The notes under the pieces were generated by a model. The model did no database searches. It was not told the DNA's origin and was given only the letters and a program-made list of their open reading frames with translations. The position numbers and the translations under genes were made by a program. A DNA stretch of 64,000 nucleotides from a bacterium (GTDB taxonomy: Bacteria; Bdellovibrionota_C; UBA2361; RFPC01): contig JAUIBK010000021.1 in the NCBI GenBank assembly GCA_030428205.1, positions 2,523 through 66,522 of the forward strand. Direction: 5' to 3'. The first letter of the stretch is position 1. Every line of letters begins with the position of its first letter. Positions 3,508-50,272 of this stretch are shown here, piece after piece.

Positions 3508-3560
3508 GCAAAATCAAGAGCAAGATACAGAAGAATCCTTGCTCCTGCTCTTGATTTTGC
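3508..3560. repeat. Imperfect inverted repeat (GCAAAATCAAGAGCAAG ... CTTGCTCCTGCTCTTGATTTTGC) containing the CAAGAG motif
   Basis: Read directly from the sequence. It is a member of the CAAGAG/CTCTTG palindrome family listed in the findings. Confidence 0.6.
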
Positions 3561-3639
3561 ACTTGCTCTACACAAACAAGAAACATCCCATAAGAAACTC
3601 TCTCATACACCTAAGTTCTCCTGCCTCTTTAAGGATGAA

Positions 3640-3719
3640 TTATAACGCGAAGTACGCGAGGTACGCGAGGTACGCGAAGCTCAACCTCCTTCGCGTACCT
3701 CGCGTACTTCGCGTTATAA
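3640..3719. terminator. Long hairpin with a ~31-bp stem built from GTACGCGAG repeats (3 copies on the left arm, 2 on the right) and a 9-nt loop. It lies 3' of the minus-strand GT4 gene.
   Basis: TTATAACGCGAAGTACGCGAGGTACGCGAGGTACGCGAAG-CTCAACCTC-CTTCGCGTACCTCGCGTACTTCGCGTTATAA. The U-tract after the stem on the minus transcript is weak (UUAUAAUU), so it could also be a repeat element. Confidence 0.4.
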
Positions 3720-3767
3720 AAATTCGGCCTGAAAATCTGCAGAGTCAACTAGGGGGGCTAGTCCGGG

Positions 3768-4934
3768 CTAGGAACTAACAGAAATGAACAGTTCTTCATA
3801 CTGATCCGCAATCTTCCCCCACTCATAACTCTCAGAGGCTCGCTCTTTCGCTAAACTTCCAAACCTCTTCAGGGCCTCTTCGTCATCAATAAGCTCCTGC
3901 ATCTTCCGAGCAAGCTCGTCGAAATCGTTCACATCATAAAAAGTGCCAGCGTATGAAAGCACCTCTCTATTTTCCGGTGTTCCATTCGCAATAATACAGT
4001 GCCCATAAGCCATCGATTCGATAAGCGCAGGATGCGTTCCTCCGACCTCAGTGGCTTGAATGTAAAGGCGCGCGTGGCTTTGGAGCTCTTGATAAGCCTC
4101 CCCAAATTGATACCCAGTAAAAACAACTCTGTCATCCGCAGCAGCATGTAGGCTCTCAATATACTCTTTGGCGTAGGGAGCATCACCAACGATAACGAGA
4201 GGATAATCGGTTTTTACTTTGCGGTAGGCTTGAATGACACCAAGAGCATTGTTTTCCGGTTCTAAGCGACTGACATAGAGAATGTACTTCTGAGGTGAGA
4301 GCCCAAGCTCACTTAACAAAGATGTCTTTTCGTGTTGCACCGCACGTGCACCATACGTAATGACAACAGGAGCAGCCTTAAAACGCTTACGATAGTAGTC
4401 TGCTATGACTTGAGCATCAGCAATAACTTTTGTTGCGAAAAGAACTGAACACAACTCTCCAAGCCGATACCACATTCGACCAACCGCATTCCACTTGGCA
4501 CGCTTTCGCTCAATCCCATCAACATTGATCAAGACAGGAAGCCCTCGAAGACGCCCAAGCCACGCAAAGGGACTATTTGCAGCATTGCACAACAACACCA
4601 CATCACACCGACGTCGAAAGAGGTCGAGAAAGCTCGTAAGAGCGTGCAGAGGTGTTTCTAAATACTTCTGCATAATTGTTGGAGTATACCGAACGGTGAC
4701 CCCTCGATACTCTTCATCACTTTTTTGCTCTCCAAAAGAGCGCCTCGCATACACGGTTACTTTGTATCCTCGAGAGACAAGCAGAGTAGAGAGTTCTTCG
4801 GCAAAAGTTTCAAAGCCACCGTAGCGAGCGGGGATACCACGGGTGCCGAGGAGGGAGATATGGAGAGACTTTGATGACATAAAGCTGACAAAAATAAGGA
4901 GTAGATCCTCCTCCCACATGCTCTTGCACTTCAT
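3768..4934 (-). CDS. Glycosyltransferase family 4. The true start is probably the internal Met near 4877.
   Basis: GT4-like sequence (LVIVGDAPYAKEY..., E-X7-E region ATEVGGTHPALIESMAYGHCIIA). The ORF N-terminus overlaps a perfect palindrome, so the first ~19 codons are doubtful. Confidence 0.75.
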   Translation of the reverse strand: MKCKSMWEEDLLLIFVSFMSSKSLHISLLGTRGIPARYGGFETFAEELSTLLVSRGYKVTVYARRSFGEQKSDEEYRGVTVRYTPTIMQKYLETPLHALTSFLDLFRRRCDVVLLCNAANSPFAWLGRLRGLPVLINVDGIERKRAKWNAVGRMWYRLGELCSVLFATKVIADAQVIADYYRKRFKAAPVVITYGARAVQHEKTSLLSELGLSPQKYILYVSRLEPENNALGVIQAYRKVKTDYPLVIVGDAPYAKEYIESLHAAADDRVVFTGYQFGEAYQELQSHARLYIQATEVGGTHPALIESMAYGHCIIANGTPENREVLSYAGTFYDVNDFDELARKMQELIDDEEALKRFGSLAKERASESYEWGKIADQYEELFISVSS

Positions 4935-47683: not shown

Positions 47684-49093
47684 ATGACAAATCACCCTCT
47701 TTCGGCAAAAGAAGTACGTGAACAAATTTGGAATGGAACCCTTTCTCCTTTACAACACCTAGAGTCCCAGCTCGCTGTCATTCACAAGCTCAACCCAAAG
47801 CTCAATGCACTACGCATCGTTGCCACTACCCAAGCCAAAGACAGAGCAAATGAACTCTCTCAAAACCGATCTCCTAAGGCACTCCACGGACTAACCTTCT
47901 CAGCCAAAGACCATATCGACATTAAAGGTCTTGGTCGTAGCAATGGCTGTAAATACGGAGCAAATGACAACGTTGCTCAAAGCTGCGCTGCCGCCTCTCT
48001 CTTAGAGGAGGCTGGAGCAATTTGCATTGGAAAAGGGAATCAGGCACATCACGGACGCTCTTATTTTACTTCCAATCGAGACTTTGGCACGACAGAAAAC
48101 CCCTACCGCATCGGCTACTCTCCTGGAGGATCAGGAGGAGGAGACGCTGCAGCACTCGCGAGCGGAATGTGTGATTTCGCTCTCGGTGCTGACTCCGGTG
48201 GTTCTATCCGTGTACCAGCAAATTTTTGTGGACTCTTTGGACTGCTTCCTACCCAAGGCCTCATCTCGGACTCCGGGTTAAGCGCACATTCTCACACCTT
48301 TCGACGGCTTACTCGAAGCCTCGGCCCACTTACTCGCTCCCTTGATGACCTAGAGCTTCTCTTTCGTATACTCGCTCGATTTGATCGCACAGATGCAGCC
48401 TCCTATTCTTCGCCCTTTCGCTCCCAGACTCCTGAAGAACCAAAGAAAAAGTTCATCTACTTTACAGAGATGAATGGAACTTCGTGTGCAAAGGAAATCG
48501 AATCGAGCCTTATGAGCGCGGTTTCCCGCTTCGAGCAAGCAGGCTACACAGGCACAGCACTCACCCCGAAAATTTTTGAACAGTGCTTTGAAGTCTTTAT
48601 CATTCTCTTTGGGCAAGCTGGGCTTATCTCTGAAGATCTCGTCCACTCCCTACAAGGTCTTCCCCCAGATCTCGCCAATGAAAGCGACGATCTAAAAACT
48701 CTCCGCTCACGCATCGCCTCCGAACTACCAGCACTCACCGTCGAAAGTCTTTTTCACTTCTGGCACATGCTTGACTCACTCCGTGACCAAAGCGCCTCAC
48801 TTTTTAACGAGATTGATTTTGTACTCGCTCCAGTCTGCGCCATTTTGCCGCCACCACAAGCTCCCCGAAAACTCGCTATTGATGGCGTTGAAGAAAAATC
48901 TGAAAATATCTTTCAGTTTGCAGCCGTGCCAAACACACTCAACCTCCCAGCGCTCGCTTTTCCAACTGAGATATCAAGCACCGGTCTTCCTCTTGGACTT
49001 CAGCTGATTGGCGAGCGATACCATGAGCACAAACTCTTTCGTGCTCTCCGAGATGCGGGGTATACCTCATGCCTCTCTCCACGTAAGGCTTAA
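47684..49093 (+). CDS. Amidase-signature family amidase (GatA-like)
   Basis: GGSGGG...GADSGGSIRVPA AS-family motifs. Confidence 0.8.
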   Translation: MTNHPLSAKEVREQIWNGTLSPLQHLESQLAVIHKLNPKLNALRIVATTQAKDRANELSQNRSPKALHGLTFSAKDHIDIKGLGRSNGCKYGANDNVAQSCAAASLLEEAGAICIGKGNQAHHGRSYFTSNRDFGTTENPYRIGYSPGGSGGGDAAALASGMCDFALGADSGGSIRVPANFCGLFGLLPTQGLISDSGLSAHSHTFRRLTRSLGPLTRSLDDLELLFRILARFDRTDAASYSSPFRSQTPEEPKKKFIYFTEMNGTSCAKEIESSLMSAVSRFEQAGYTGTALTPKIFEQCFEVFIILFGQAGLISEDLVHSLQGLPPDLANESDDLKTLRSRIASELPALTVESLFHFWHMLDSLRDQSASLFNEIDFVLAPVCAILPPPQAPRKLAIDGVEEKSENIFQFAAVPNTLNLPALAFPTEISSTGLPLGLQLIGERYHEHKLFRALRDAGYTSCLSPRKA

Positions 49094-49096
49094 GGC

Positions 49097-50200
49097 ATGT
49101 TGAGACGTCACATCTTTACAATCCTGCTCGTTCTCACCTGCTTAAGTCTACCGCTACGCGCTCTGAGCGATACAAAAGAGACTCTCACGATTGGTGCTTT
49201 ACTCTCCCTCTCTGGTGGCCTCGAGCAGTGGTGTAGCTACATGAAAAAAGGTATGCAGCTAGCGCTTCTCGAACACCCAGACAGTGGCATCAAGGTGATC
49301 TATGAAGACGATCACTCACTTGATAGAAAGGCATCCCTCGCCGCGGCACAAAAGCTCGTCAATTTCGACAAAGTCGATCTCCTGACAACATGGACGGCCT
49401 CTTCTATTCCACTTCTTGCGCCCGTGGCAACACGGAGCAAAACTCCTTTTGTGGCTGGTGCCTACGATCGAAACGTCAAAAACGGGGGGCCTTATGTCTT
49501 TGGGACGCTCGTCAATTACGAACTCCTCCCCCGCCAGATTGCGCAATTTCTATTTCAGACCCACCAAGCAAAGCGCTATGCACTCATACTGGCCGCCGAT
49601 GATTGGTCCCAGTCGTACGTCGCGCCGTTTCAAGAAGAGCTCTCATCTCTTGGCGGAGAAGTCGTTATGAGCGAAACGCTCTCCCCCCAAGAGACAGACA
49701 TGCGCTCCATTGTGATTAAGCTTCGCGAACGTAAAGTTGACGCTGTACTCGCCCCTCTCTACGGTAGCTCTCTCTACTCATTTCTCAAACAAGCTTCACA
49801 GCTCCACTTTGAGGGCCTGATTCACGTTGGAGATGGGATGTTCGAAGAAGATCTTAAGATTGCAGGCAACACCGCTGAGGGCGTGTACGCTACTCAGATC
49901 TGGCTCCGCTCTGAAGAACTTGCCTCACTACTTGCAGAGCATTTTCCAGGAACACTCAATCCTCTCCAGCTTGGGCTTGTGGCAAGTGGGTATGACTGGA
50001 TTATGCATCTCAATCATGTGAAGCAAGTTCTCTTAAAAGAGAATAAAGAACTCTCGAGAGAAAATCTGAGAGAGGCGCTTATGACCGTGCGAACGAAAGG
50101 ATTTCTTGGGGAACAAATCTACGGGGCACCACCAGCAACGAGTGGAGAAATTAATGTCGTGGTTCAAAATGGCACGTATGTGAAGGCTGCTGAGAACTGA
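49097..50200 (+). CDS. Periplasmic substrate-binding protein, Leu/Ile/Val-binding (Peripla_BP_6)-like
   Basis: Signal peptide, then TIGALLSLSGGLEQWCSYMKKGMQLAL...KVDLLTTWTASS, which matches the LivJ-family pattern. Confidence 0.55.
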   Translation: MLRRHIFTILLVLTCLSLPLRALSDTKETLTIGALLSLSGGLEQWCSYMKKGMQLALLEHPDSGIKVIYEDDHSLDRKASLAAAQKLVNFDKVDLLTTWTASSIPLLAPVATRSKTPFVAGAYDRNVKNGGPYVFGTLVNYELLPRQIAQFLFQTHQAKRYALILAADDWSQSYVAPFQEELSSLGGEVVMSETLSPQETDMRSIVIKLRERKVDAVLAPLYGSSLYSFLKQASQLHFEGLIHVGDGMFEEDLKIAGNTAEGVYATQIWLRSEELASLLAEHFPGTLNPLQLGLVASGYDWIMHLNHVKQVLLKENKELSRENLREALMTVRTKGFLGEQIYGAPPATSGEINVVVQNGTYVKAAEN

Positions 50201-50226
50201 ATTCTTAGCCCAGAGAGCTTCCCTCT

Positions 50227-50272
50227 ACTCTTACTCTTGCTCTTGCTCTTGCTCTTGCTCTTGCTCTTGCTC
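50227..50272. repeat. Tandem hexamer repeat (TCTTGC)x6-7 of the CAAGAG family, followed by a partial inverted copy
   Basis: ACTCTTACTCTTGCTCTTGCTCTTGCTCTTGCTCTTGCTCTTGCTCACC. Confidence 0.85.

What the first reader, a model, noticed from the sequence alone, without database searches (positions are those of the whole stretch)
3508..50272. Genome-specific palindrome family built on CAAGAG/CTCTTG hexamers (at least four loci in this window)
Four loci carry members of one family. 3508-3560 is an inverted repeat (GCAAAATCAAGAGCAAG). 4921-4988 is a perfect 30-bp-stem palindrome. 41128-41204 is a ~29-bp-stem palindrome. 50227-50272 is a (TCTTGC)6-7 tandem array followed by a partial inverted copy. 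All are intergenic or in 5' leaders (a GT4 gene, the nif3/pgk region, the ABC binding protein / annexin-like spacer). The perfection of the stems implies recent spread or selection. They could be REP-like elements, protein-binding sites or recombination hotspots. One is translated as a spurious Cys/Ser-rich ORF (41097..41387) in the ORF track.
Basis: seen in the sequence. Interest (0 to 1): 0.6.

Follow-up and report, generated by a model that had tools for sequence, protein, structure and literature searches.

The report
Palindromes built from six-base repeats
Four spacers between genes in this uncultured Bdellovibrio-like bacterium carry copies of one hairpin-forming palindrome whose arms are tandem six-base units (CTCTTG); it is a REP/MITE-like junk-or-regulatory repeat rather than a gene, and palindromes on the same six-base unit turn up in about ten other bacterial phyla.

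Summary
Arms of 37 nt (100% complementary) lie at 4914-4995 and arms of 32 nt (97%) at 41128-41204. A weaker 21-nt inverted repeat lies at 3505-3563, and a (CTCTTG)x7.5 array with a decayed partner arm at 50228-50312. Shuffled sequence gives perfect inverted-repeat arms of at most 12 nt.

The two strong copies share 27 of 29 arm positions. Where they differ, the change is mirrored in both arms. Their loops are at most weakly alike. Relatives with the same lptD-accD/nif3-pgk gene order lack the element.

The elements match no Rfam family, lack the U-tract of an intrinsic terminator and carry no sigma-70-like site. The ORF through 41128 is spurious.

My best reading is a non-coding, hairpin-forming inverted array of short tandem repeats, akin to REP/MITE elements and cyanobacterial STRR. 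I infer that it grows by slippage, that replication template switching keeps its arms paired, and that an unknown route dispersed it. If transcribed, it would put hairpins of -56 to -75 kcal/mol into mRNA leaders.

"Genome-specific" holds only for this subfamily. A palindrome pattern on the same unit hit at least 118 stretches in about 37 genomes of about 10 phyla. I could not test whether this unit is special, nor whether the family is spread across the whole host genome.

The parts
4914..4995 (.). Strongest family member. Perfect palindrome with 37-nt arms (CCACATG CTCTTG CACTTC ATCTTG CTCTTG CTCTGA) and an 8-nt loop (GGAACACA). It lies between the divergent GT4 glycosyltransferase gene (ATG at 4880, - strand) and a PAS/response-regulator gene (5203, + strand), 34 nt upstream of the GT4 start codon.
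   Evidence: I1.: -74.6 kcal/mol, z -13.5, same fold on both strands. for the flanking genes; no sigma-70-like site; the single terminator-like match (4913-4896, - strand) lies outside the element.
41128..41204 (.). Second strong member. 32-nt arms, 97% complementary, 11-nt loop. The arm core GCTCTTGCACTTGTTCTTGCTCTTGCTCT matches the 4914 arm at 27 of 29 positions. It lies between divergent accD (start 40980, - strand) and nif3 (start 41254, + strand), 50 nt upstream of the nif3 ATG. The spurious ORF 41097-41387 runs through it.
   Evidence: I2; -55.8 kcal/mol, z -10.9. Identical in Logan contig L001. Absent from the orthologous spacers of L120-L123.
50228..50312 (+). Decayed member. The left arm has expanded into a nearly pure (CTCTTG)x7.5 array (50228-50272). 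The right part (about 50283-50312) is a degenerate copy of the 4914 right arm. It lies between the convergent Peripla_BP_6 gene (ends 50200) and an annexin-like gene (ends 50375).
   Evidence: period 6, 7.5 copies, 97% matches. for the alignment.: + strand -36.3 kcal/mol, z -2.4; - strand not significant.. The Logan contig L158 breaks inside the array.
3505..3572 (.). Weak member with reversed polarity, CAAG-type arm first. 21-nt arms (AGAGCAAAATCAAGAGCAAGA / TCCTGCTCTTGATTTTGCACT), 90% complementary, 17-nt spacer, and a short CTTG-type extension (ACTTGCTCT). It lies inside the glycosyltransferase cluster, between the GT4 stop (3768) and the GT2 start (3380), both on the - strand.
   Evidence: I12; z -3.7 on + and -5.2 on -.

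Best explanation
These are copies of a non-coding, hairpin-forming DNA repeat. Each arm is a run of tandem six-base units with four conserved and two variable positions (TCTT-NN, read here as CTCTTG, CACTTG, ATCTTG). The second arm is the inverted copy of the first. This is an inverted short-tandem-repeat array, closest in kind to REP/MITE elements and to cyanobacterial STRR or Xanthomonas heptamer pairs. It is not a gene, an intrinsic terminator or a member of any Rfam family.

Shown:
- The structure itself and its extreme departure from chance.
- Common ancestry of 4914, 41128 and the right half of 50228, which share the same irregular order of unit variants.
- Mirrored, copy-specific variants in both arms of each copy.
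- Absence of the element from the same spacer in the nearest available relatives.

Inferred:
- Replication slippage lengthens and shortens the arms in 6-nt steps. The pure 7.5-unit array at 50228 is an example.
- Intrastrand template switching at quasi-palindromes, or selection for pairing, copies changes from one arm to the other and keeps the stems perfect.
- The centre is remodelled, so the loops diverge.
- Copies reached unlinked spacers through a trans-acting mobility function or recombination route that is not encoded in this window.
- No dedicated cellular function is required. Where a copy lies in a transcribed leader or operon spacer (the GT4, nif3 and GT2 leaders), the RNA would carry a hairpin of -56 to -75 kcal/mol. 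That hairpin could act as an RNase III substrate or an exonuclease barrier and so alter mRNA stability, as REP elements do.
For: - Structure and statistics.
- Shared ancestry: the arms agree at 27 of 29 positions, including the irregular GCACTT unit. The outer end CATGCTCTTGCAC recurs in 4914 and, as CATCCTCTTGCAC, in 50228. A Bdellovibrionales MAG element (L018) begins ACATGCTCTTGC.
- Mirrored differences: CTTCAT/ATGAAG in 4914 against CTTGTT/AACAAG in 41128.
- Lineage-specific gain: gene order lptD-accD<->nif3-pgk-flgM is conserved in L120-L124. Their spacers of 138-285 nt hold no such palindrome, and those loci hold no hexamer arrays at all.
- Not coding, no intrinsic-terminator tail, no sigma-70-like site, no Rfam family.
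- No fixed gene context: two copies sit between divergent genes, one between convergent genes and one within an operon. In other genomes the split was tandem 33, convergent 17, divergent 7 (rough gene calls).
- A mobile route exists for such arrays elsewhere. In Desulfobacterales HSG2 the same arrays sit inside a MITE with terminal repeats CATAAGTGTAAACTTAGGG and 10-bp target duplications. In a Limisphaerales MAG and in Xanthomonadales they form the centre of REP-like mosaics.
- Template switching that makes imperfect palindromes perfect is established in E. coli (PMC7202029).
- Inverted pairs of short tandem arrays are documented in Xanthomonas (PMC4692102).
Against: - No target-site duplication, no terminal repeat beyond the arms, and no transposase or RAYT gene in 64 kb. 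Mobility in this genome is therefore inferred, not shown.
- Only four copies are visible, and the rest of the genome was unreachable.
- The nearest relatives are distant (nif3 at most 64% identical). "Absent in relatives" therefore says little about how recently the element arrived.
- Mirrored variants fit selection on an RNA or DNA stem just as well.
- Both perfect copies sit 34-50 nt upstream of a start codon in divergent promoter regions, which a purely selfish model does not predict.
- The GCACTT variant recurs in many unrelated one-directional arrays in metagenomes. Sharing it is therefore weaker evidence of ancestry than it looks.
Confidence: 0.5

Rival explanations
1. A selected cis-regulatory element. 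The stem would be recognised as an RNA hairpin in 5' leaders or as a DNA cruciform/operator in divergent promoter regions. A sequence-specific protein, or RNase III, would act on it to set the expression of the flanking genes (GT4 cluster, PAS/response regulator, accD, nif3). The loops would be free to vary because only the stem matters.
For: - Both perfect copies lie in divergent promoter spacers, 34 and 50 nt from a start codon.
- The arms carry mirrored (compensatory) differences while the loops differ.
- In Chthoniobacterales one 29-nt arm (CTCTTTGTCTTGCTCNTGCTCTTGCTCTC) is kept across at least 6 species-level genomes with unrelated loops.
- A Limisphaerales family has a CUUCGG centre in one orientation.
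- There is a precedent for a repeat proposed to act in translation control: TAACTGA repeats just upstream of start codons (PMC4679880).
Against: - The flanking genes share no functional theme.
- One copy lies between convergent genes and another within an operon.
- Relatives with the same gene order have no counterpart.
- There is no Rfam match.
- Mirrored changes are equally explained by DNA template switching (PMC7202029).
- The single mismatch in 41128 is T.T, not a G.U-compatible change.
- Orientation of the asymmetric Limisphaerales copies shows no clear bias relative to neighbouring ORFs: 9 co-oriented against 5 (rough).
Confidence: 0.2
2. Independent local origin. Each locus would have grown its own CTCTTG microsatellite by slippage and turned it into a palindrome by a local fold-back or template-switch inverted duplication. 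The similarity between loci would be convergence on a slippage-prone unit, with no movement between loci.
For: - 50228 is mostly a plain tandem array.
- The loops look locus-specific.
- No target duplications or transposase were found.
- One-directional arrays of the same unit, including the GCACTT variant, are common in unrelated metagenome contigs.
- The window also holds a palindrome built from a different tandem unit, a 9-mer at 3640-3719.
Against: - 4914 and 41128 share the same irregular order of five units (27 of 29 positions) and the right-hand junction TCAG[A/T]GCAAGAGCAAGA.
- The decayed arm at 50228 shares CAT[G/C]CTCTTGCAC...TCATCTTG with 4914.
- Four loci with one unit in 64 kb, and none in about 48 kb of related genomes, is hard to reach by independent events.
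Confidence: 0.15
3. Bidirectional intrinsic transcription terminators or attenuators.
For: The hairpins are very stable on both strands. The 50228 copy lies between convergent genes.
Against: - No U-run follows any of the stems on either strand, and the terminator scan places nothing on them.
- The two best copies lie between divergently transcribed genes, where nothing needs terminating.
- Stems of 32-37 bp are far longer than those of typical intrinsic terminators (own knowledge).
Confidence: 0.03
4. Assembly artefact: fold-back chimeras or collapsed repeats in a metagenome-assembled contig.
For: The host is an uncultured MAG-type contig of 67 kb. A short-read Logan contig breaks inside the 50228 array.
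Against: - The 41128 palindrome with its flanks is identical over 3,783 nt, with one mismatch elsewhere, in a Logan contig seen in two samples.
- The elements lie inside otherwise collinear, syntenic sequence.
- Comparable elements occur in many independent assemblies, including isolate genomes such as Rhodanobacter terrae and Pseudoxanthomonas sacheonensis.
Confidence: 0.02

Closest known systems
REP elements and REPINs (REP doublets forming hairpins, mobilised by RAYT transposases; Bertels and Rainey 2011, PMC3116915)
   Same: Short, non-coding, intergenic and multi-copy. Two inverted halves with a spacer are predicted to fold as a hairpin in ssDNA or mRNA. They have no fixed gene context. 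In Xanthomonadales the (TGCTCT)2 segment sits at the centre of GTAGGAGC-type REP doublets.
   Different: Each half here is a tandem hexamer array, not a small palindromic REP unit. There is no GTAG-type head. The spacer is not conserved between copies. No RAYT is encoded in the window, and the rest of the genome is untested.
MITEs (miniature inverted-repeat transposable elements)
   Same: Inverted ends, small size, intergenic dispersal and hairpin-forming transcripts. In Desulfobacterales HSG2 the same hexamer arrays are carried inside a genuine MITE with terminal repeats and 10-bp target duplications.
   Different: The window copies show no target-site duplication, no terminal repeat distinct from the arrays, no conserved interior and no parent insertion sequence.
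Short tandemly repeated repetitive (STRR) sequences of cyanobacteria, TAACTGA repeats of Beggiatoaceae, Cyanobacteria and Bacteroidetes (MacGregor 2015, PMC4679880), and GGGAATC arrays of Xanthomonas, of which 70-75 per genome form convergent inverted pairs (Rehm et al. 2015, PMC4692102)
   Same: Intergenic head-to-tail arrays of a 6-7-nt unit recur at many loci. The same unit is found in distant phyla. Arrays are often paired in inverted orientation and so able to form stem-loops or cruciforms. Their function is unknown. Genomes that carry CTCTTG palindromes (HSG2, Limisphaerales, Chthoniobacteraceae) also carry heptamer arrays of this kind.
   Different: The unit is a hexamer with a TCTT-NN pattern, not a heptamer. 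It is neither G-rich nor quadruplex-forming. The window copies are near-perfect long palindromes that share an ordered set of unit variants, rather than loose pairs of arrays. They do not abut the ribosome-binding site as TAACTGA repeats do.
Quasi-palindrome hotspots corrected by replication template switching (Ripley model; Klaric, Perr and Lovett 2020, PMC7202029)
   Same: This offers a mechanism that turns imperfect inverted repeats into perfect ones. It would produce exactly the mirrored, copy-specific variants seen here.
   Different: It is a mutational process, not a family of elements. Whether it acts at these loci is inferred only.

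Membership tests
REP / REPIN | The unit is a short imperfect palindrome (REP) of about 20-40 nt, typically with a conserved 5' tetranucleotide such as GTAG | tested here: not met
   Single arms are tandem hexamers and are not self-complementary. No GTAG head is present.
REP / REPIN | Two REPs in inverted orientation replicate as one unit together with their spacer, so the spacer is conserved among copies | tested here: not met
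   The inverted halves are present, but the loops of 4914 (GGAACACA) and 41128 (CCAAATCACTC) are at most weakly alike.
REP / REPIN | A cognate RAYT (Y1 transposase) gene in the genome, itself flanked by the repeats | tested here: inconclusive
   38 of the larger window ORFs were scanned against Pfam or NCBIfam and none is a transposase. A few ORFs were not scanned, and the rest of the genome could not be reached.
REP / REPIN | Many copies, over-represented and confined to extragenic space | tested here: inconclusive
   Four copies in 64 kb, all between real genes. The motif count is 23 against 2.1 expected. A genome-wide count was not possible.
MITE | Terminal inverted repeats matching those of an autonomous insertion sequence | tested here: inconclusive
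   The arms are inverted repeats, and only a short outer CACATG is specific to the end of 4914. No insertion sequence is present in the window for comparison.
MITE | Target-site duplication flanking each copy | tested here: not met
   The flanks of 4914 (..CCTCCTC | AGTACTC..) and 41128 (..GATCGTC | AGAATAT..) share no direct repeat. HSG2 copies, by contrast, have clear 10-bp duplications.
MITE | Interior sequence conserved among copies of a family | tested here: not met
   The loops differ in length and in most positions.
STRR-like intergenic short-tandem-repeat arrays, including inverted pairs | Head-to-tail copies of a 6-7-nt unit in intergenic DNA | tested here: met
   Tandem Repeats Finder reports period 6 at 4919-4948, 4961-4990, 41128-41159, 41174-41204 and 50228-50272. 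All lie between genes.
STRR-like intergenic short-tandem-repeat arrays, including inverted pairs | The same unit recurs at several unlinked loci of one genome | tested here: met
   Four loci spread over 47 kb.
STRR-like intergenic short-tandem-repeat arrays, including inverted pairs | Arrays occur as convergent inverted pairs able to form stem-loops, as described for Xanthomonas GGGAATC (PMC4692102) | tested here: met
STRR-like intergenic short-tandem-repeat arrays, including inverted pairs | Heptamer unit, as in classical STRR, TAACTGA and GGGAATC | tested here: not met
   The unit is 6 nt. Across phyla the profile is TCTT plus two variable bases.
Intrinsic (Rho-independent) terminator | A G+C-rich hairpin immediately followed by a U-run | tested here: not met
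   The terminator scan places no site on the elements, and no T-run follows the stems on either strand.
Any curated RNA family (Rfam 15) | A match at or above the family's gathering score | tested here: not met
   Only tRNA-Leu matched in the whole window.

The most novel reading that the evidence does not exclude
CTCTTG-type (TCTT-NN) inverted hexamer arrays may be one cross-phylum class of element rather than a set of coincidences. On this reading they are palindromes with constant arms and free loops. The pyrimidine-rich arm would always lie 5' of the purine-rich arm. The class would be kept or spread in Verrucomicrobiota, Desulfobacterota, Bdellovibrionota, Xanthomonadales, Sumerlaeota, Hydrogenedentes, Gemmatimonadota, Bacteroidota and others by a shared factor. 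That factor could be a hairpin-recognising mobility enzyme or a protein that reads a six-base register. No paper in the searchable library contains these array strings.
Probability: 0.15. Interest if true: 0.65.

Novelty: new variant of a known kind. Interest (0 to 1): 0.4.

Why it matters
For this genome the practical consequences are modest. The elements create spurious ORFs, because CTCTTG arrays have no stop codon in any of the six frames. They break short-read assemblies. They would also place very stable hairpins in the leaders of a glycosyltransferase cluster, nif3 and possibly accD, so they should be masked in annotation and considered when expression is interpreted.

More broadly, the work links three things usually treated separately: short-tandem-repeat arrays, REP/MITE-type palindromes and quasi-palindrome correction. 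It also shows that arrays of one six-base unit form the stem of dispersed palindromes in many phyla. In some genomes they sit inside true MITEs or REP doublets. If the unit or its polarity proves to be non-random across bacteria, that would point to an unrecognised constraint or factor acting on hairpin DNA or RNA.

Tried and rejected
- Rfam search of the whole window: only tRNA-Leu matched.
- Sigma-70 promoter and terminator scans on all loci: nothing on the elements.
- Coding potential: the ORFs through the arrays are low-complexity artefacts.
- Viral contigs: no match to the two-arm pattern.
- Metagenome scan with the window-specific arm: 33 stretches, none palindromic and none from the host lineage.
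- Reaching more of the host genome: exact-protein look-ups returned only short Logan contigs that re-cover the window. Two guesses at the GT4 start codon were not on record.
- Cyanobacterial origin: only one HIP1 site. The nif3 homologues that carry a name are mostly from Bdellovibrionales, Bdellovibrionota or Oligoflexia MAGs, so the host is placed there provisionally.
- Intrastrand-triplex or H-DNA idea (PMC4666352): rejected by my own reading of the sequence, because the unit is not mirror-symmetric.
- Hfq (ARN)n or TRAP-like triplet binding: considered from memory. Only the AAGAGC and AAGAGT units fit ARN, while the common AAGATT and AAGATA units do not. Not pursued.
- Context statistics across the 118 foreign loci: a naive ORF caller put 46 elements "inside" ORFs. 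This is an artefact of ORFs running through stop-free arrays in high-GC genomes, so only the rough split into tandem, convergent and divergent is reported.
- Orientation bias of the asymmetric Limisphaerales copies: 9 against 5, not informative.
- Polarity bias: 10 to 0 among unselected copies, but all come from two related Desulfobacterales genomes and so are not independent.
- Literature searches for the array strings or units: no paper.

Full report
**What is there**

Reading the four loci and running the repeat tools confirms the observation and extends it.

- 4914-4995 is a perfect palindrome with 37-nt arms and an 8-nt loop.
- 41128-41204 has 32-nt arms with one T.T mismatch and an 11-nt loop.
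- 3505-3563 is a weaker inverted repeat (21-nt arms, 90% complementary, 17-nt spacer).
- 50228-50272 is a (CTCTTG)x7.5 tandem array.

The arms of the two strong copies are themselves period-6 tandem arrays. Written in register they read CACATG CTCTTG CACTTC ATCTTG CTCTTG CTCTGA for 4914, and CTTGCT CTTGCA CTTGTT CTTGCT CTTGCT CT for 41128.

This is far from chance. GCAAGAGCAAG with up to one mismatch occurs 23 times against 2.1 expected. A scan for CTTG or CAAG recurring every 6 nt finds only these four loci in 64 kb. Ten dinucleotide shuffles never give a perfect inverted-repeat arm longer than 12 nt. Predicted folding energies are -74.6 and -55.8 kcal/mol (z -13.5 and -10.9) for the strong copies. 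The other two are much weaker.

**One family, not four coincidences**

The arm cores of 4914 and 41128 agree at 27 of 29 positions, including an irregular GCACTT unit in the same place. The sequence to the right of the 50228 array (CAAGATGAGGAGAAGGTGCAAGAGGATG) is a degenerate copy of the 4914 right arm (CAAGATGAAGTGCAAGAGCATG). So 50228 is a decayed member whose left arm expanded into a pure array. 3505-3563 uses the same units but has the opposite polarity, purine-rich arm first. It is the weakest member.

The two strong copies differ from each other in the arm core (CTTCAT against CTTGTT). In each copy the other arm carries the matching complement, ATGAAG or AACAAG. Their loops are at most weakly similar. 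The perfection of the stems therefore does not come from recent insertion of identical copies. Something keeps the two arms of each copy matched.

**Setting**

Pfam and NCBIfam scans give the gene context.

- 4914 lies between a GT4 glycosyltransferase gene (true ATG at 4880, - strand) and a PAS/response-regulator gene (5203, + strand).
- 41128 lies between accD (- strand) and nif3 (+ strand).
- 3505 lies within the same-strand glycosyltransferase cluster, between GT4 and GT2.
- 50228 lies between the convergent genes for a periplasmic binding protein and an annexin-like protein.

The two perfect copies sit 34 and 50 nt upstream of a start codon. No sigma-70-like promoter or terminator pattern falls on any element, and no Rfam family matches. 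The ORF 41097-41387 is a low-complexity artefact. It arises because CTCTTG and its complement have no stop codon in any of the six frames, which can be read directly from the sequence.

None of the 38 larger ORFs scanned is a transposase or RAYT.

**Host and relatives**

The window's proteins are on record only from one 67,316-nt NCBI contig and from short Logan contigs of run ERR3428546. The nif3 homologues that carry a name are mostly from Bdellovibrionales, Bdellovibrionota or Oligoflexia MAGs, and the best non-self hit is only 64% identical.

Three such relatives keep the gene order lptD-accD<->nif3-pgk-flgM. Their accD-nif3 spacers of 138-285 nt hold no such palindrome, and about 48 kb of their sequence holds no CTT/AAG hexamer array at all. 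The element was therefore gained in the window's lineage, although the relatives are too distant to date that gain.

The Logan contig covering 41128 is identical to the window (one mismatch in 3,783 nt, elsewhere) and was seen in two samples. That argues against an assembly artefact. Another Logan contig stops inside the 50228 array, as short-read assemblies do at repeats.

**The unexpected result: the motif class is not genome-specific**

I scanned one genome per species (185,579 species) for TGCTCTTGCTCT, then 4-34 nt, then AGNGCAAGAGCA. My own estimate of the chance expectation in random sequence is below one hit.

These come from about 37 genomes:
- Verrucomicrobiota: Limisphaerales, many Chthoniobacterales, Verrucomicrobiales and Pedosphaerales.
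- Desulfobacterota: HSG2, HSG8 and Desulfosalsimonadaceae.
- Xanthomonadales/Lysobacterales, including isolates of Rhodanobacter and Pseudoxanthomonas.
- A Bdellovibrionales MAG, Sumerlaeota, Hydrogenedentes, Krumholzibacteriia, Gemmatimonadales and Bacteroidota.

In all of them the arms continue outward in a six-base register. Outside the selected core the profile is T-N-N-T-C-T, that is TCTT plus two variable bases, with GC > AA > TA > AC > TG.

The arrays are embedded in different carriers:
- In HSG2 they lie inside a true MITE, with terminal repeats CATAAGTGTAAACTTAGGG and 10-bp target duplications.
- In a Limisphaerales MAG they lie in a mosaic with GGTTCATGGGAAG...CATGAACC hairpins.
- In Xanthomonadales they lie between GTAGGAGC-type REP units.
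- In Chthoniobacterales one 29-nt arm is shared by at least 6 species-level genomes. Eight copies in one MAG have unrelated loops.

The same genomes also hold inverted arrays of other hexamers and of heptamers. The window itself holds a palindrome built from a 9-mer at 3640-3719. The window's own arm variant was found in JGI metagenomes only as one-directional arrays, never as a palindrome. So this subfamily is private to the lineage, while the building principle and the unit are widespread.

**How it most likely works**

I commit, at about 50% confidence, to a DNA-level repeat element. It is an inverted short-tandem-repeat array that needs no dedicated cellular function.

The structure, the shared ancestry of three loci, the mirrored variants and the absence from relatives are shown. 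The following steps are inferred:
- Slippage changes arm length in six-base steps. 50228 is the visible extreme.
- Template switching at quasi-palindromes, an established process that makes imperfect inverted repeats more perfect (PMC7202029), copies changes from one arm to the other.
- The centres are remodelled, so the loops diverge.
- Copies reached unlinked spacers by a route not encoded in the window. The HSG2 MITE shows that one such route exists for these arrays.
- When transcribed, and for GT4 and nif3 the geometry makes a leader position likely, the RNA would carry a very long perfect stem. From general knowledge of REP elements and RNase III, such a stem could change mRNA processing or stability in either direction.

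**Rivals**

- A selected cis-regulatory stem (20%). It is favoured by the position of both perfect copies near start codons in divergent spacers, and by the constant-arm, free-loop pattern seen across Chthoniobacterales. It is weakened by the unrelated gene contexts, the lack of any counterpart in syntenic relatives and the T.T mismatch. DNA-level correction also explains the mirrored changes.
- Purely local, independent origin (15%). It fits the plain array at 50228 and the lack of target duplications. It does not fit the shared order of unit variants and the shared outer ends.
- Terminators (3%) and assembly artefact (2%) are essentially excluded.

**Comparison with what is known**

The elements work like REP/REPIN and MITE repeats but fail tested defining features of both. 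There is no REP unit or GTAG head, no conserved spacer, no target duplication and no conserved interior.

They fit best with intergenic short-tandem-repeat arrays: cyanobacterial STRR, the TAACTGA repeats shared by Beggiatoaceae, Cyanobacteria and Bacteroidetes (PMC4679880), and above all the Xanthomonas GGGAATC arrays, of which 70-75 per genome form convergent inverted pairs (PMC4692102). They differ from these in having a hexamer unit with a TCTT-NN pattern and near-perfect, ordered arms. No paper in the searchable library contains the array strings or discusses this unit. I therefore rate the finding a new variant of a known kind.

**Limits**

The same applies to whether the pyrimidine-first polarity is a rule. 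That polarity holds for 3 of 4 window copies and for 10 of 10 unselected copies, but those ten come from two related genomes.
- Gene-context statistics in foreign genomes rest on a crude ORF caller.

Noticed in passing
window 16476-16563, 44410-44497, 56730-56817 (and 46772-46832): A second, unrelated palindrome family: CCAATTTCTTGAACTTTTTTCTCCGTGGC arms of 27-29 nt, perfectly paired within each copy. Copy-specific variants are mirrored in both arms, the 30-34-nt loops are poorly related and each contains GATC, and a conserved NNGTTCRAC follows on the right. All three copies lie between convergent genes. 46772-46832 is a similar-looking palindrome with 29-nt arms between divergent genes. The orthologous spacers in relative L121 lack them.
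   Followed up: partly
window 3640-3719: A palindrome whose arms are four tandem 9-mers (ACGCGARGT). It folds at -60 kcal/mol (z -10.8) and lies 49 nt downstream of the GT4 stop codon, in the same spacer as the 3505 element. It shows the same tandem-unit palindrome architecture with a different unit.
   Followed up: partly
window 25990-26210: The 3' end of tRNA-Leu(CAA) plus about 30 nt downstream (GTCCCTCTCCTGGTATTTTGATATCTAGAGAATAA) is repeated directly about 110 nt further on. An inverted copy of the T-arm (26100-26116) lies in between. This looks like an attachment-site scar or a tRNA fragment.
   Followed up: partly
window 54601-54779: Nested inverted repeats (21-nt outer arms 137 nt apart, 21-nt inner arms 23 nt apart) just upstream of a PilB/GspE-type ATPase gene at 54814.
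   Followed up: no
window 12237-14621; 18326-19780 and 20218-21627; 16585-17964: A VirD4/TraG-like conjugal coupling protein sits among housekeeping genes. Two adjacent FliD (filament cap) paralogues lie near a flagellin gene. A beta-CASP/MBL ribonuclease gave its best NCBIfam hit to the type VII CRISPR 'Cas14' model, far below that model's cut-off.
   Followed up: no
L158 (Logan contig), equivalent to window ~50263: The short-read Logan assembly of the same organism ends inside the (CTCTTG)7.5 array, showing that these arrays fragment assemblies.
   Followed up: yes
L009, L023, L034, L051, L076, L109 and others (Desulfobacterales bacterium HSG2): A high-copy MITE with terminal repeats CATAAGTGTAAACTTAGGG and 10-bp target duplications (for example CCCTCCGGAC, ATACTTGGAT, GTTCCTGGTT). 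Its interior consists of inverted TCTTGC/TCTTTA/TCTTAA arrays. The same genome is full of inverted hexamer arrays (AACTTG/GTTCAC) and heptamer arrays (GGGTTAA, CGGTTGA/GTCAACC), several of them ending just before a ribosome-binding site and ATG.
   Followed up: partly
L003, L004, L022, L041-L044, L054, L059, L083, L090, L103, L105, L107, L110, L115, L117 (Limisphaerales MAG_MBR_H10.46): A mosaic repeat with at least 17 copies. A GGTTCATGGGAAG...CATGAACC hairpin is followed by a hexamer hairpin with a CUUCGG centre and then GGTTCATGGGAAG again, sometimes chained. This resembles a BIME-like cluster.
   Followed up: partly
L140, L143, L155, L156 (metagenome contigs): One-directional CTTGCN hexamer arrays abut copies of the GTCATTC(C/T)GAGC...GAATC repeat that, from memory, is common in soil bacteria. 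This is another case of hexamer arrays attached to a dispersed repeat.
   Followed up: no
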